From: an uncultured Gammaproteobacteria bacterium
Lineage (GTDB): Bacteria > Patescibacteriota > Patescibacteriia > UBA10025 > JAHIVO01
Length of the DNA stretch: 59,194 nucleotides
Reading direction: 5' to 3'
Assembly: GCA_964628855.1 (NCBI GenBank)
Contig: CAZVMV010000007.1
Coordinates: 1-59,194, forward strand
In this document: piece by piece, positions 1-17,521 of the stretch
Layout of the letters: the number at the start of each line of letters is the position of its first letter
Position numbering within the stretch: the stretch's first letter is position 1
Made by a program: the position numbers and the translations under genes
The notes under the pieces: generated by a model
What the model saw: the letters and a program-made list of their open reading frames with translations, nothing else
What the model was told of the DNA's origin: nothing
The model's database searches: none

Positions 1-71
1 CCCAAGGGGATTTGAACCCCTGATCTCCTCCGTGACAGGGAGGCGTGTTAACCGGGCTACACCATGGGTCC
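1..71 (-). tRNA. tRNA-Asp(GTC); 3' end cut by the window edge
   Basis: Reverse complement GGACCCATGGTGTAGCCCGGTTAACACGCCTCCCTGTCACGGAGGAGATCAGGGGTTCAAATCCCCTTGGG. Acceptor GGACCCA/TGGG.., anticodon arm CTCCC-TGTCACG-GAGG with GTC, T-arm AGGGG-TTCAAAT-CCCCT. Confidence 0.95.
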
Positions 72-9656: not shown

Positions 9657-9828
9657 CTATTGGCACGAAGTTTGTCCCTGAAGCGATGGTTGCGTGGTTT
9701 CGGGTCGTTACCAGCCCATCCTCGCGGCGCATCGACGGGGGACGGACGGGAAAGCCGATGTCCGGACAGGCTTCCGACCTTGCCAGGACTTGCGGTTGGC
9801 CGCTGAGTATTTGCCAGCGGTCTTTTTT
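9657..9828 (+). ncRNA. Candidate structured small RNA (6S-like possible)
   Basis: TATAAT at 9645-9650; a GC-rich pairable island in AT-rich DNA; terminal stem GTCC(C)TG/CAGGAC; terminator CCGCTG/CAGCGG followed by TCTTTTTT. Confidence 0.5.
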
Positions 9829-14204: not shown

Positions 14205-16226
14205 ATGGCAAAAAAAATAAAATCAGACAGTAAAAACCCAACCGCAAGTACCGATGGAACAAGCCTTCAGTCGGATCGAGACGCAATCCGTAAGATTCTC
14301 GTATCTGATGATTCCGACGAAGTTACCAATACCGTAAAATCAAATTCACAGTCCAAGGATTTTGCGGCTTTGTACCAGGCAAAGGGCATCGCCAGGTCAG
14401 AAATGTTCACTATTGACCGGCGTGATCCCAACAAACGCAAGAAAATAATCGCGTGGGTTGTCTGCGGCTTGGCGTTAATCGTCGTGGTGACCCTCTCGGG
14501 GTTTTATTTTTTTGTGAACCGCCAGAAGCAATTCAAGGGTGAAAACATTTCTATACTTACCACCGCCCCGCCCTCAGTAGCCGCTGGCGCGGATAATAAT
14601 TTTTCCATTGAAGTAAGAAACGATGAAGCGGTTGATATAAAGAATGTCGAGTTAACTGTCCAATTTCCGGATGGTTTTATTTTCAAATCATCCTCGCCAA
14701 GCTCTGAGAACGACGCGCATAACGCCTGGTCATTGCAAACTATCGGCAGTGGCAAGAGTCGCACAGTCGAAATTGTCGGCCAACCATTTGGTGATATTGG
14801 CACGATGCAATCATTTTCCGTACTAGTTACGTACACGCCGGCAAATTTCAACTCGGAGTTCCAGAAATCAAGCACTTTCAATGTCACCCTGAGCAAATCT
14901 GCAATCAGCCTGAACATGGAGGTGCCGCTTAAGGTTGTCAGTGGACATGCGGCTGATTACCGCATTAAGTTTACCAATAATTCAAGGGACGTCTTCAATA
15001 ATGTGCGAATGTCGATTATTTGGCCGGAAGACGTTGTTGTCGGTAGCCTGAACCCTGCCCCAACTGACGCAGCTAAACAGATTTGGGAAATAGACCAGGT
15101 AGCCGCCGGCGCCAGTTATGAGGTTTCTTTTAAAGGCACCGTTTCCGGGGCTGAGGGAGCCATGCGAGAATTCAAGGCTGAAGTGGGCTATACTGATTCT
15201 GCTGGCCAGAATCACAAGCAGGCCGAAGGTTCTTCGATTGTGATTGTGGCAAATCCGCAATTATTGCTGAATTTATTAATAAACAACAGTGCAAATAACT
15301 CAGCCGTTGATTTCGGAAGCACGATTGATTATACGTTGAAATATCGCAATGACAGCCAGTCTGAAATCAAGGACATGGGCTTGCAACTCAAGGTGGAGAG
15401 CGGTTTGGTCGATTGGAATAATATTATTAACACAAATAATGGCAAAATTGTCGGTGGAACTGTCACGTGGGATAGTAATGGGCTGCCTGCGTTGAAATCG
15501 GTCAAGCCAGGTGATGAAGGCGAAGTCCAGATCCGGGTCAGCGTGAAAGAGCCGCCGTTGGCGAAAACAACCGGGGATAAAAATTATTCCATTATCAGCC
15601 AGGCCAAAGCGGTTTCTGCAAATGTTGTCGATCTGGAAGGTGGGTCATTGTCAGTCGATAGCAATAGCATTACGACTAAAATCAACAGTAAAATCTCACT
15701 CCGGTCAGAAGGCAGGTATTATTCCGACGAATATGCTGCAGTCGGATCGGGACCCTTGCCCCCACAGGTTGGGCAGAAAACAACATACGTTATATATTGG
15801 TACTTGGAAAACTCCGGCAATGAAGTCCAAAATATGGCTGTCACGACCGTATTGCCAGAGTGGGTTATCTGGCAAAACATTTCTAAAGTTACGGCAGGTT
15901 CGATCAGCTATGACAGCACAACCCGTACAGTAACGTGGTCGATAAATAAACTGCCTCCACAGGTCGGGCAACTGATCCCTGAGCTGGCGGCTAATTTTTC
16001 CATATCTGTTACTCCGACTAGTTCTGACGTCGGGAAGCTGCTGATCCTGACCGGGAAAAGCCTGGGTACAGGCGTTGATTCATTTACCGGCCAGACCCTG
16101 GCACCGAGCCAGGACATGATTACGTCTGATCTGATCCATGACCCCCAAGCAACTGGGAAAGGAATAGTCATAGATTCCACTACGATCAATACGAACATAG
16201 GAACAAATTCTAACGTTAATATATAA
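14205..16226 (+). CDS. Single-pass membrane protein with extracellular beta-sandwich (DUF11-like) repeats
   Basis: Charged N-terminus, TM (IIAWVVCGLALIVVVTLSGFYFFV), repeated Y.I.F.N/..V.LP/..W.I..L units; GSGPLPPQVGQKTTYVIYW. Confidence 0.8.
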   Translation: MAKKIKSDSKNPTASTDGTSLQSDRDAIRKILVSDDSDEVTNTVKSNSQSKDFAALYQAKGIARSEMFTIDRRDPNKRKKIIAWVVCGLALIVVVTLSGFYFFVNRQKQFKGENISILTTAPPSVAAGADNNFSIEVRNDEAVDIKNVELTVQFPDGFIFKSSSPSSENDAHNAWSLQTIGSGKSRTVEIVGQPFGDIGTMQSFSVLVTYTPANFNSEFQKSSTFNVTLSKSAISLNMEVPLKVVSGHAADYRIKFTNNSRDVFNNVRMSIIWPEDVVVGSLNPAPTDAAKQIWEIDQVAAGASYEVSFKGTVSGAEGAMREFKAEVGYTDSAGQNHKQAEGSSIVIVANPQLLLNLLINNSANNSAVDFGSTIDYTLKYRNDSQSEIKDMGLQLKVESGLVDWNNIINTNNGKIVGGTVTWDSNGLPALKSVKPGDEGEVQIRVSVKEPPLAKTTGDKNYSIISQAKAVSANVVDLEGGSLSVDSNSITTKINSKISLRSEGRYYSDEYAAVGSGPLPPQVGQKTTYVIYWYLENSGNEVQNMAVTTVLPEWVIWQNISKVTAGSISYDSTTRTVTWSINKLPPQVGQLIPELAANFSISVTPTSSDVGKLLILTGKSLGTGVDSFTGQTLAPSQDMITSDLIHDPQATGKGIVIDSTTINTNIGTNSNVNI

Positions 16227-16296
16227 GGAATATTAGAATAAGTATTATTTAGTGGCTAATTTTAGCCATTTTTTAATATGTTGTGAATATCTAATC

Positions 16297-16325
16297 TTGA
16301 CATGGGAAGCGCAATATCCTATACT
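16297..16325 (+). promoter_or_regulatory. Near-consensus sigma70 promoter
   Basis: TTGACA(16297-16302)-17 nt-TATACT(16320-16325); GGGAAG/CTTCCC inverted repeat overlaps it. Confidence 0.8.
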
Positions 16326-16329
16326 TCCC

Positions 16330-16710
16330 GGTTACGCTAATAAAACCACAATTTACCGGGTAATTCGCGCTGAAGGAGAGGGCAGCAAGATTACCCACAG
16401 ATTACTATTACTGAAGGTGCTCTCTCGAGGACCTTGTTTTTTTCCAGTGATTTGGAGGGAGGGCAAAAAGGTCGGCAGCGGTATCGCGATGGGTTTACTC
16501 ATCAAAGACATCTGCACCGACTGGCTAAAGTGGACTTCGGTCATAAGCTTTAGCACCGCATACTCTCCAAATCCGTGGGTAAAAGCTGGTACATTGAAAA
16601 CACGATACGAACACGAAAACACTTTTCTATTGTTTGGGAACAGCCTGTTGGCGGTTAAACCATTGACCACAACCGGCTGTTCTCAAACTAATCCATCGTT
16701 AGGATGATCA
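16330..16710 (+). ncRNA. Candidate large structured RNA or 5' leader of unknown family
   Basis: At least eight helices, including a 14-bp stem (16632-16645/16675-16688), a 9-bp perfect stem (16449-16457/16565-16573) and a cUUCGg tetraloop. All G.U wobbles are oriented for the + strand. Confidence 0.65.
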
Positions 16711-16752
16711 CAGTGATTGTCCTGCGGTGTACAAAATCGTAGGAGGTGTGTT

Positions 16753-17265
16753 ATGAAACGCATTCGTAGAAGCGTAAGTATTGAAGTCACTGTCAACTAT
16801 GACCGTGAAATCAGCGAATCAAACGAACATTGTGTTCGAAGGTCCCCACTTTCGGGCGAAAAGACTGTCGAAATTGAATTCATCAATTTTGGGCAAGAAG
16901 TCACCTGGTCCGAATTCGAAGAAGAATGCAGTCGTTTAAATGTACGGCCGGCAAATTTTTTCGAAAGGAAGGCGCTGCTTGAAGACTGTACTCAAAGACT
17001 AGCTTTTCATGAGAGTCTTCAATTCGGCCAACGCCATCGGATACCGCTTCAATTATTGCCGGCGAGCTTGCCGTCCCGCATCACCATTTGGTTTCTGGAA
17101 TCCTTCATCGTAAATGTAATGAAGGATGCCGATACCAATGAAGAGGTGTGGAGCGAAACCGCATTCTCGGGTCTGTATCGCAATGGTAATAACTTCGAAG
17201 AATTTTTCGACGAGCTGTGGGATGGTTTCTCTAGTGACTGCTGGTTTGCAGTAGTTGTTCGGTAG
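16753..17265 (+). CDS. Hypothetical protein, 170 aa
   Basis: AGGAGGT SD 5 nt before the ATG; acidic and aromatic-rich, ends WFAVVVR. Confidence 0.75.
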   Translation: MKRIRRSVSIEVTVNYDREISESNEHCVRRSPLSGEKTVEIEFINFGQEVTWSEFEEECSRLNVRPANFFERKALLEDCTQRLAFHESLQFGQRHRIPLQLLPASLPSRITIWFLESFIVNVMKDADTNEEVWSETAFSGLYRNGNNFEEFFDELWDGFSSDCWFAVVVR

Positions 17266-17421
17266 TCAACACACTCGGTATCCTTTTCTACCCGGATTGT
17301 TTTTCAGATGTAGTTTGCCGTTTAGTAGATTTAACGAGAATCATGAGACGTTCGTATCGGAAATCGTACTGACTATATTCAGTACGTAAGTAATATTCTC
17401 AATATTACTTTTCGCTCTTCC

Positions 17422-17460
17422 AAGACCTGCTCCCGTAACTGTTGCATAGGTCTTTTTCTT
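17422..17460 (+). terminator. Intrinsic terminator closing the 16.3-17.5 kb cassette
   Basis: AAGACCT(GC)...(GC)ATAGGTCTT followed by TTTCTTTT. Confidence 0.6.
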
Positions 17461-17521
17461 TTACGGTAATTATCGAGAATTGAGAGATAAGGGCATTTAC
17501 TGTATACTTCAAAGACATTGT

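What the first reader, a model, noticed from the sequence alone, without database searches (positions are those of the whole stretch)
16330..16710. ~380-nt multi-domain structured RNA behind a consensus promoter, with no family I recognise
About 420 nt separate TTGACA-17-TATACT from the next ATG. Domain A: GAGAGGGCA 16376-84/TGCTCTCTC 16418-26. Domain B: closing stem GATTTGGAG 16449-57/CTCCAAATC 16565-73, enclosing GTCGG-CAG/CTG-CCGAC, GATGGG-TTTA-CTCATC (16488-16503) and GCTAAAG/CTTTAGC (16524-30/16548-54) capped by GAC-TTCG-GTC. Domain C: a ~24-bp hairpin, GTTTGGGAACAGCC 16632-45/GGCTGTTCTCAAAC 16675-88 plus GTTG/CAAC and GGTTAA/TTGACC. Four separate helices contain G.U pairs that work only on the + strand, which argues for selection at the RNA level. 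It could be a new riboswitch or leader, a ribozyme, or an independent ncRNA acting with the downstream protein.
Basis: partly seen in the sequence, partly recalled or inferred. Interest (0 to 1): 0.8.

Follow-up and report, generated by a model that had tools for sequence, protein, structure and literature searches.

The report
Modular structured mRNA leader in CPR
The 420 bases behind the promoter are a real folded RNA leader built from three separately conserved modules, none of them in Rfam, that most likely control whether a small accessory gene of this ultra-small (Patescibacteria) bacterium is transcribed and translated.

Summary
Every helix is at the stated coordinates. The + strand folds far better than shuffles (z = -8.2; - strand -3.45). 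No Rfam 15 family matches.

The RNA is not one unit. It is a composite 5' leader of three modules.
- A (16331-16446) follows the promoter. A hairpin loop (AAGGAGAGGGCA) is complementary to the 5' half of a terminator hairpin with a U7 tract. This pairing is present in all 11 copies compared.
- B (16449-16573) belongs to a family that my model finds in 25 of 401 genomes of the same class and in 0 of 400 others across the phylum. Copies often sit in tandem. Of 31 pairs, 28 show compensatory changes. The closing helix is an SD-like/anti-SD-like duplex.
- C (16632-16688) is followed by a three-part SD switch (16694-16746).

Downstream genes differ at every locus and match no Pfam family. The 1.29-kb block holding the leader and its 170-aa orphan gene is absent from a same-genus genome.

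My reading is a cis-acting attenuator plus translational gate whose trigger is unknown.

The parts
16251..16270 (+). Hairpin/palindrome GGCTAATTTTAGCC followed by a T-run. It is either the terminator of the upstream 673-aa gene, a conserved upstream element of the cassette, or both.
   Evidence: Terminator scan. The palindrome GGCTAAnnTTAGCC, in one or two copies, precedes the promoter in 10 of 12 leader loci from several families, at variable distance.
16297..16325 (+). Sigma-70-type promoter TTGACA-17-TATACT. Transcription probably starts near the GTTA at 16331.
   Evidence: 11 of 12 matches. The same promoter sits at the same place in every homologous leader. GTTA after the -10 is a general promoter feature of this genome.
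16331..16446 (+). Module A, the promoter-proximal attenuator. P1 is 16358-64/16390-96. P2 is 16369-72/16383-86, with purine loop AAGGAGAGGG at 16373-82. The terminator hairpin is 16414-16435 and the U7 tract is 16437-16443. The alternative helix 16376-84/16418-26 (antiterminator or H-type pseudoknot) excludes the terminator.
   Evidence: Models R1 and R3 find it in 13 of 401 class genomes, including a second copy in the window's own genome (C9:9410-9526). P2 and the terminator show compensatory changes. The antiterminator pairing is kept in all 11 copies at -13 to -16 kcal/mol, against -6 to -13 for the terminator.
16449..16573 (+). Module B, a multi-helix motif. P1 is 16449-57/16565-73 (GGAG/CUCC clamp). 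P2 is 16471-75/16519-23 (16470/16524 adds a G.U pair). The internal loop is CGGUAUCGC / AAAGACAU around P3 (16488-93/16498-503, which has a conserved G.U). P4 is 16524-31/16547-54, enclosing hairpin GAC-UUCG-GUC plus a UAA bulge. An outer CCAG 16444-47/CUGG 16586-89 helix encloses it.
   Evidence: Model R2 gives 95.8 bits here and finds 41 copies in 25 of 401 class genomes and 0 of 400 elsewhere in the phylum. 90.2% of cells are paired, 28 of 31 pairs show compensatory change, and the covariation score is 0.558 against 0.155 shuffled and at most 0.091 slid. P1, P4 and P5 were recovered independently by MAFFT+RNAalifold.
16594..16612 (+). Conserved single-stranded linker UUGAAAACACGAUACGAAC.
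   Evidence: TTGAAAA and GATACGAAC are invariant in the window, G009 and G016. A related UUGACAAUUC follows B copies in other families.
16632..16688 (+). Module C, a hairpin of about 24 bp in three segments (14 + 4 + 6 bp).
   Evidence: It is conserved in G009 and G016 with C-G to U-A and G.U to A-U / G-C exchanges.
16694..16746 (+). Three-part translational switch. The decoy SD UAGGAUGAUC (16700-09) pairs with the anti-SD strand GAUUGUCCU (16715-23). Alternatively, UCCUGCG (16720-26) pairs with CGUAGGA (16738-44) and buries the real SD AGGAGG (16741-46).
   Evidence: The two folds are -21.6 and -18.7 kcal/mol. Both pairings are kept with compensatory and G.U changes in G009 and G016.
16753..17265 (+). 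Controlled gene, a 170-aa orphan protein.
   Evidence: It has no Pfam match, only itself in 5.8 billion proteins, only two weak partial matches in 1.84 billion representatives, and an AlphaFold pLDDT of 34.
16227..17521 (+). 1.29-kb accessory block holding the hairpin, promoter, leader, orphan gene and a new promoter for tgt. It is absent from a same-genus genome.
   Evidence: In G001 the stop of the 673-aa gene homolog overlaps the tgt start (TAATG) with no intergenic DNA.

Best explanation
Region 16331-16752 is the cis-acting 5' leader of the mRNA for a 170-aa orphan gene. It is assembled from reusable RNA modules and controls expression at two levels.

Level 1, transcription. Module A can fold in two mutually exclusive ways. 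In one, the P1/P2 hairpin forms together with an intrinsic terminator (hairpin 16414-35 plus U7), which stops RNA polymerase about 110 nt into the transcript. In the other, the purine loop (16376-84) pairs with the 5' half of the terminator (16418-26). With P1 this forms an H-type pseudoknot that lets polymerase read through.

Level 2, translation. Near the start codon an anti-SD strand (GAUUGUCCU) pairs either with an upstream decoy SD or with the real SD AGGAGG.

Module B is a conserved multi-helix fold whose closing helix is itself an SD-like (GGAGG) / anti-SD-like (CACCUCC) duplex. At other loci this duplex sits 41-47 nt before the start codon and can swap onto the gene's SD. B is the best candidate for the part that binds the trigger, which could be a small molecule or a protein. 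Module C is a rigid spacer or processing hairpin.

What is shown: the promoter, the helices, their conservation and covariation, the competing pairings, and the modularity. What is inferred: that termination and SD masking actually occur, and that something switches them. The trigger is unknown.
For: - Strand-specific stability is far beyond shuffles.
- The promoter sits directly upstream in every copy.
- All 11 compared A copies have a hairpin followed by a U-rich tract, and keep a 7-9 bp alternative pairing of comparable or greater stability.
- A occurs alone about 70 nt before a different SD-led gene in the same genome. This argues for action in cis.
- B shows strong covariation, including a G.U kept in 24 of 28 sequences. 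That pair would be C.A on the other strand.
- B always lies on the same strand, downstream of A and upstream of an SD-led ORF, often as 2-3 tandem copies.
- When the 5' strand of P1 is left out, the CACCUCC strand folds onto the downstream SD in 5 of 8 loci tested (L052, L054, L049, L067, L069); in L053 the overlapping CUCAC pairs GUGAG instead.
- The window's SD region has two near-isoenergetic folds, and both pairings are conserved in G009 and G016.
- The genome is SD-poor, with about 6% of crude ORFs carrying a 5-mer SD against 2% background. The leader-controlled genes all carry strong GGAGG-type SDs.
Against: - Termination, read-through and the transcript ends are unverified.
- The antiterminator pairing is almost invariant in sequence, so it has no covariation support. 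Its conservation could instead reflect a protein-binding or DNA-level role.
- Downstream genes share no function, so no ligand can be inferred. This heterogeneity is unusual for metabolite riboswitches.
- In the window, B's 3' strand reads CUCUCC rather than CCUCC and lies 180 nt from the SD, so its role here is unclear.
- The P2/P3 half of B varies or is missing in some subgroups and was not recovered in the model-independent alignment.
- The CM alignments were fitted to my structure, and two models were built from cores with lineage-specific insertions trimmed.
Confidence: 0.6

Rival explanations
1. Structural insulator or processing modules without any sensor. B and C would be constitutive folded elements, such as 5' stabilisers or RNase processing sites, that standardise stability and translation of interchangeable gene cassettes. 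A's terminator would merely damp a very strong promoter.
For: B copies also lie between genes inside operons (third copies in L049 and L052). Module C is a duplex of about 24 bp, long enough for RNase III. An earlier AI note on another genome named RNase III stems as the closest known thing. The heterogeneous cargo genes fit a generic device.
Against: B's P1 is only about 10 bp in most copies. B has a multi-helix junction with near-invariant unpaired nucleotides (CGGUAUCGC, AAAGACA, CAAA bulge), which a plain stabiliser does not need. Mutually exclusive pairings are conserved at both A and the SD.
Confidence: 0.15
2. Leader of a toxic-gene mRNA of the type I toxin-antitoxin kind. The layered repression would keep a harmful small protein silent until an antisense RNA is lost or the mRNA is processed.
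For: About half of the SD-led first ORFs behind B copies are 38-120-aa hydrophobic peptides, and several others are signal-peptide proteins. SD sequestration by upstream CU-rich strands is typical of such mRNAs (established knowledge of hok and aapA1).
Against: The window's own cargo is a 170-aa soluble-looking protein. The C9, G009 and G016 cargos are 323, 174 and 288 aa. No antisense promoter was found inside the leader. The RNA motif is far more conserved than the ORFs.
Confidence: 0.1
3. Module A, possibly with B, is an independent small RNA gene with its own promoter and terminator that acts in trans. The downstream ORF would be expressed only by leak-through.
For: A has a consensus promoter and ends in a terminator, giving a discrete RNA of about 110 nt. 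Its purine loop and CU-rich stretch are sequence-invariant, as seed regions often are.
Against: Every copy examined in detail is followed on the same strand by an SD-led ORF with no second promoter found. The antiterminator partner lies inside the same RNA.
Confidence: 0.1
4. B is a DNA-level mobile repeat (MITE-like, with terminal inverted repeats GATTTGGAG/CTCCAAATC), or the region encodes the 151-aa ORF.
For: B is absent from the closest homologous leaders (G009, G016) and looks inserted. An open frame spans 16252-16707.
Against: There is a single B copy in the window's own genome. Compensatory changes and strand-specific G.U pairs are present. Orientation relative to promoter and genes is fixed. 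The ORF has no Pfam match, is not conserved, and the module indels are not multiples of three.
Confidence: 0.03

Closest known systems
Pseudoknot-type transcriptional riboswitches and attenuators (for example the fluoride, preQ1 and SAM-II style architectures)
   Same: Promoter-proximal hairpin whose loop pairs with downstream sequence to form an H-type pseudoknot. That pairing competes with an intrinsic terminator hairpin plus U-tract.
   Different: No sequence or structure match to any Rfam family. The paired blocks are invariant purine/pyrimidine runs. No ligand is suggested, because the controlled genes are unrelated.
Tandem aptamer arrangements and second-messenger riboswitches such as c-di-GMP-I (GEMM)
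   Same: Aptamer-like multi-helix modules occur in 2-3 tandem copies in one leader. The downstream genes are heterogeneous and are often membrane, secreted or unknown proteins.
   Different: This is resemblance in layout only. GEMM and the other families were searched and did not match. The closing helix here has a conserved SD/anti-SD sequence, which those aptamers lack.
5' UTRs of type I toxin mRNAs (hok, aapA1, tisB)
   Same: Long, highly folded leaders in which upstream CU-rich anti-SD strands mask the SD, often before small hydrophobic ORFs.
   Different: Here the RNA modules are conserved across bacterial families while the ORFs are not. No antisense partner was seen. The window's cargo is not a small hydrophobic peptide.
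RNase III processing stems (rRNA operon flanks, phage T7 R sites)
   Same: Long irregular duplex (module C, about 24 bp) and clamped modules lying between cistrons.
   Different: B's clamp is about 10 bp and encloses a conserved junction. No cleavage data exist.
Unpublished AI note of this scan on another CPR genome (e1-766137)
   Same: It describes copies of a conserved folded RNA with no Rfam match, clamped by an SD:anti-SD-like helix, in front of fast-changing small-protein genes. This is evidently the same family as module B.
   Different: That locus has a 21-bp clamp and three copies in one operon. It is not independent evidence.

Membership tests
Any Rfam 15 family (4227 models) | Covariance-model score at or near the family's gathering threshold | tested here: not met
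   Whole window at gathering score: only a tRNA at 1-71. Region 16200-16800 at E <= 10: two chance hits of 13.3 and 11.6 bits. Same result for the G361 locus and 14 related loci.
Riboswitch (generic) | Conserved, covarying aptamer-like fold in a 5' UTR | tested here: met
   Module B has 28 of 31 pairs with compensatory change and 90% of cells paired. P1, P4 and P5 were recovered independently. It lies between a promoter and an SD-led ORF.
Riboswitch (generic) | Expression platform with mutually exclusive structures | tested here: met
   Terminator against antiterminator in 11 of 11 A copies. Anti-SD/SD against decoy/anti-SD in the window, G009 and G016. P1 against SD pairing at other loci.
Riboswitch (generic) | Coherent set of controlled genes pointing to a ligand | tested here: not met
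   Downstream proteins are unrelated orphans, small membrane peptides and secreted proteins with no Pfam family.
Riboswitch (generic) | Direct, selective ligand binding | not testable with these tools
   Needs in-line probing or ITC.
Intrinsic-terminator attenuator | Hairpin immediately followed by a U-tract, within the leader | tested here: met
   Hairpin 16414-35 plus T7 at 16437-43. A U-rich tract follows the hairpin in all 11 copies. The hairpin is GC-poor (-9.7 kcal/mol) and the simple scan did not list it.
Intrinsic-terminator attenuator | Observed premature 3' ends or conditional read-through | not testable with these tools
Type I toxin-antitoxin mRNA | Small hydrophobic toxin ORF plus a cis- or trans-encoded antisense RNA | tested here: not met
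   The window cargo is a 170-aa non-hydrophobic protein. No antisense promoter lies in the leader. Many other loci do carry small hydrophobic ORFs.
RNase III substrate | About 20 bp or more of near-continuous duplex | tested here: inconclusive
   B's P1 is 9-10 bp, so not met. Module C is 24 bp with two small interruptions, so possible.
MITE / DNA repeat | Many dispersed copies, either orientation, no RNA-level constraint | tested here: not met
   One B copy and two A copies in the 0.98-Mb assembly. Orientation is fixed and G.U pairs are strand-specific.

The most novel reading that the evidence does not exclude
Module B is a new class of sensing RNA (riboswitch or factor-binding switch) built around an internal copy of the Shine-Dalgarno:anti-Shine-Dalgarno duplex. 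Its 3' strand CUCACCUCC copies eight bases of the 16S rRNA tail. In an SD-poor CPR lineage it would gate the few strongly SD-led accessory genes. Together with module A it would form an interchangeable set of leader parts that moves laterally with orphan gene cassettes. The window's B is 83% identical to one in a different bacterial family and is absent from its own family, and the whole cassette is missing in a congener.
Probability: 0.25. Interest if true: 0.85.

Novelty: new variant of a known kind. Interest (0 to 1): 0.62.

Why it matters
CPR/Patescibacteria make up a large share of bacterial diversity, and almost nothing is known about how they regulate genes. This leader provides three things.

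1. Two or three RNA motifs, one with strong and two with partial covariation support, that are absent from Rfam 15 and that I did not find in three full-text literature searches.
2. A clear, testable two-level switch design: pseudoknot against terminator, and decoy-SD / anti-SD / SD.
3. Evidence that leader modules are shuffled like parts and travel with fast-evolving orphan genes, many of them small membrane or secreted proteins that may mediate host contact.

If module B binds a signal, it would give an entry point into CPR signalling. The SD:anti-SD clamp in an SD-poor genome also bears on how such organisms select mRNAs for translation.

Tried and rejected
- Known RNAs. Rfam at gathering score and at E <= 10 on the window, on a distant homolog and on 14 related loci gave nothing. 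RNase P RNA was considered because of the size of the element. RF00010 is not found in this 79%-complete assembly, but the element has none of the RNase P conserved blocks and is modular, so I dropped the idea.
- Exact-pattern scans for module A in genome contigs, viral contigs and metagenome contigs returned only the two known CPR genomes plus one near-identical metagenome contig (L035). The other hits failed the covariance model.
- Cargo gene. There is no homolog by word search. An exhaustive HMMER search gave only two weak partial matches to giant proteins. There is no Pfam match. The single-sequence AlphaFold model was useless at pLDDT 34, so no fold search was run. The C9 cargo has no PDB relative.
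- A 10-nt 5'UTR/3'UTR complementarity (16603-12 / 17350-59) looked like a hok-style long-distance lock. It is not conserved in G009 or G016, and about one such match is expected by chance.
- Literature searches for CPR structured RNAs and SD usage found no description of the motif. TIGR arrays surfaced, but their reported units (about 36 nt, as I recall them; the paper was not opened) are much shorter and unlike these modules.
- The upstream palindrome as a fixed-position activator site: its spacing to the -35 varies from 10 to 29 nt, so I left it as 'terminator and/or conserved cassette element'.

Full report
**Observation**

The promoter TTGACA-17-TATACT is at 16297-16325. The next plausible start is the ATG at 16753, preceded by AGGAGG. 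As RNA, 16330-16753 folds to -153.3 kcal/mol on the + strand. Dinucleotide shuffles give -112.8 +/- 4.9 (z = -8.2). The reverse complement reaches only -123.3 kcal/mol (z = -3.45), which is the asymmetry expected when G.U pairs matter. Rfam 15 gives nothing at gathering score or at E <= 10.

**The RNA is modular**

BLAST of the region against 60 relatives did not return one homolog. It returned pieces.
- Query bases 1-114 recur in the window's own genome on another contig (C9:9418-9526) and in G009.
- Bases 265-422 recur in G009 and G016.
- Bases 115-264 match nothing in those leaders.

Reading the loci shows the same consensus promoter in each, followed by module A. After A come only 22 nt (G009) or 47 nt (G016) of linker, then module C, an SD-masking hairpin and an ORF. 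The C9 copy has A alone, about 70 nt before a different ORF. The ORFs are unrelated (170, 323, 174 and 288 aa). Their only Pfam signal is a weak cold-shock domain in one of them.

**Module A (16331-16446)**

Alignment of the copies shows three elements.
- A helix, P1/P2, closing a purine loop of consensus AARGAGAGRGC. P2 covaries: GCUG/CAGC, ACUG/CAGU, GCCG/CGGC, UUUG/CAGA.
- A linker of variable length.
- A hairpin GGUGCUCUCUC...GAGGACC followed by a U-rich tract. In the window the hairpin is 16414-16435 and the tract is T7 at 16437-43.

It is therefore an antiterminator, and with P1 it forms an H-type pseudoknot. Another first-stage note also saw the pseudoknot. In all 11 copies compared, the pairing is 7-9 bp and worth -13 to -16 kcal/mol as a duplex, while the terminator hairpin is worth -6 to -13 kcal/mol. 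Both blocks are nearly invariant, so there is conservation but no covariation for this helix. Covariance models R1 and R3 find A in 13 of 401 genomes of the class, mostly in two families. By eye, expanded versions head the loci of further families.

**Module B (16449-16573)**

A weak R1 hit in a different family (G361, L045) proved decisive. There, A is followed by two tandem elements that share GCGGTATCGCG, CAAAGACA and GGGCTTCGGTCC with the window's 'inserted' domain. I built model R2 from the window copy and these two copies, with lineage-specific insertions trimmed.

R2 finds 25 of 401 genomes of the class with hits, often 2-3 per locus. It finds none in 400 genomes drawn across the phylum. 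Apart from the window, no genome of the window's own family has it.

On the 41-sequence alignment:
- 90.2% of cells pair.
- 28 of 31 pairs show changes on both sides.
- The covariation score is 0.558, against 0.155 for shuffles (0 of 500 reach it) and at most 0.091 for slid partners.
- One P3 pair is G.U in 24 of 28 sequences, which fixes the strand.

That alignment is fitted to my model, so I repeated the test with plain MAFFT plus RNAalifold on 16 copies. P1, P4 and the inner UUCG hairpin were recovered, with 14 of 19 pairs compensated. The variable P2/P3 half was not recovered. It does show clear compensation between the window and its 83%-identical counterpart in G274: C-G to U-A in P2, and A-U/U-A to G-C/C-G in P3.

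The consensus has three parts.
- A sequence-conserved closing helix, 5' GAYAUGGAGGGG / 3' CUCACCUCCAGAUC. This is an SD-like strand clamped to an anti-SD-like strand.
- A near-invariant GRGC-UUCG-GYYC-AAA hairpin inside P4.
- In the window's subgroup, an internal loop CGGUAUCGC / AAAGACAY around P3.

No Rfam family matches the G361 locus or 14 other loci.

**Module C and the ribosome-binding region**

The 24-bp hairpin 16632-88 and the linker TTGAAAA..GATACGAAC are conserved in G009 and G016, with a few compensatory and wobble exchanges.

Downstream, the strand GAUUGUCCU(GCG) can pair in two ways. It can pair with an upstream decoy UAGGAUGAUC, giving a local fold of -21.6 kcal/mol. Or it can pair with CGUAGGA of the real SD, giving -18.7 kcal/mol. 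Both pairings survive sequence change in G009 (GGAGCAGUC / GAUUGUUCU, and CUGUGAUG / CAUUACAG) and in G016.

At loci where B directly precedes the gene, its CACCUCC strand lies 41-47 nt before the AUG in five loci. It folds onto the SD once its P1 partner is removed. The logic is therefore the same at both kinds of locus: anti-anti-SD, anti-SD, SD.

**Context**

The organism is a Patescibacteria/CPR bacterium (record titles).

In the same-genus genome G001, the homolog of the upstream 673-aa gene ends in TAATG, overlapping the tgt start. So the 1.29 kb from 16227 to 17521 is an accessory block present in this genome and absent there. The block holds the hairpin, promoter, leader, orphan gene and a fresh tgt promoter.

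The cargo protein is an orphan. Across loci the first SD-led ORFs are mostly 38-120-aa hydrophobic peptides or signal-peptide proteins, all without Pfam families.

A palindrome GGCTAAnnTTAGCC plus a T-run precedes the promoter in most loci, at variable spacing.

A crude count suggests the genome rarely uses SDs: 66 of 1098 ORFs have a 5-mer core, against 2% at random positions. This makes the strong SDs of these cassettes stand out.

**Interpretation**

The best-supported reading is a cis-acting composite leader with two controls: a conditional terminator in A, and SD gating at the 3' end. B is the likeliest receptor for an unknown signal.

I hold this at about 0.6. The key antiterminator helix lacks covariation. 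The heterogeneous cargo gives no clue to a ligand.

The rivals are a non-sensing insulator or processing module, a toxic-gene leader of the type I kind, a trans-acting sRNA, and a DNA repeat or coding region. The last is essentially excluded.

**Novelty**

The operating logic (attenuation and SD masking) is classical. The motifs themselves are not in Rfam 15, and I did not find them described in the searchable literature. An earlier AI note of this scan met the B family in another CPR genome. That is a lead, not independent evidence. I file the finding as a new variant of a known kind.

Noticed in passing
window 1-71 (-): A tRNA gene cut by the window edge (56 bits).
   Followed up: no
window 16227-17521 vs L093 (G001:C6): In the congener the 673-aa surface-protein gene and tgt overlap (TAATG). 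Here they are split by a 1.29-kb cassette, and tgt has acquired its own promoter-like site TTGAGA-17-TATACT at 17480-17508.
   Followed up: partly
whole genome G000: The genome appears SD-poor. Only about 6% of crude ORFs of at least 120 aa have an SD 5-mer upstream, against 2% at random positions. Many promoters read TTGACA-17-TAnnnT followed 3-9 nt later by GTTA, which looks like a general initiation context.
   Followed up: partly
whole genome G000: Bacterial RNase P RNA (RF00010) was not detected in the assembly, which is 79% complete. The gene may be missing from the bin or divergent.
   Followed up: no
window 16391-16403 and 16570-16582: A 13-nt, 92% complementary pair links the 3' strand of module A's P1 (UUACCCACAGAUU) to the sequence just after module B (AAUCCGUGGGUAA). 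The counterpart flank in G274 (AAAUCUGUGGAUA) finds no match in that locus's module A, so the pairing is unexplained.
   Followed up: partly
L006 (C9), L005 (G009): transcript 5' end vs post-terminator segment: The 5'-terminal GUUACGC is complementary (7 bp) to the conserved GCGUAAY a few bases after the terminator U-tract in C9 and G009. This could close module A in read-through transcripts. It is weaker in the window and in G016.
   Followed up: no
window 16603-16612 and 17350-17359: A perfect 10-nt complementarity links the conserved leader motif CGAUACGAAC to the 3' UTR of the cargo gene. It is not conserved in G009 or G016 and is expected about once by chance.
   Followed up: yes
L005 (G009:C2) 470-2898: The homologous cassette in G009 lies between two tRNA genes (739-810, 2829-2898) and next to a small GIY-YIG-like ORF. 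This setting is typical of laterally acquired DNA.
   Followed up: no
L052 (G274:C2), L049 (G299:C1): These operons contain further repeated intergenic units (for example ...CTTAAACTCTGCTTTCGTCCCGA...) before additional small membrane ORFs and a third B copy. A conserved UUGACAAUUC linker follows the first B copy in several families.
   Followed up: no
window 9657-9828: Another first-stage note proposes a 170-nt 6S-like RNA here. The whole-window Rfam scan at gathering score gave no hit there.
   Followed up: no
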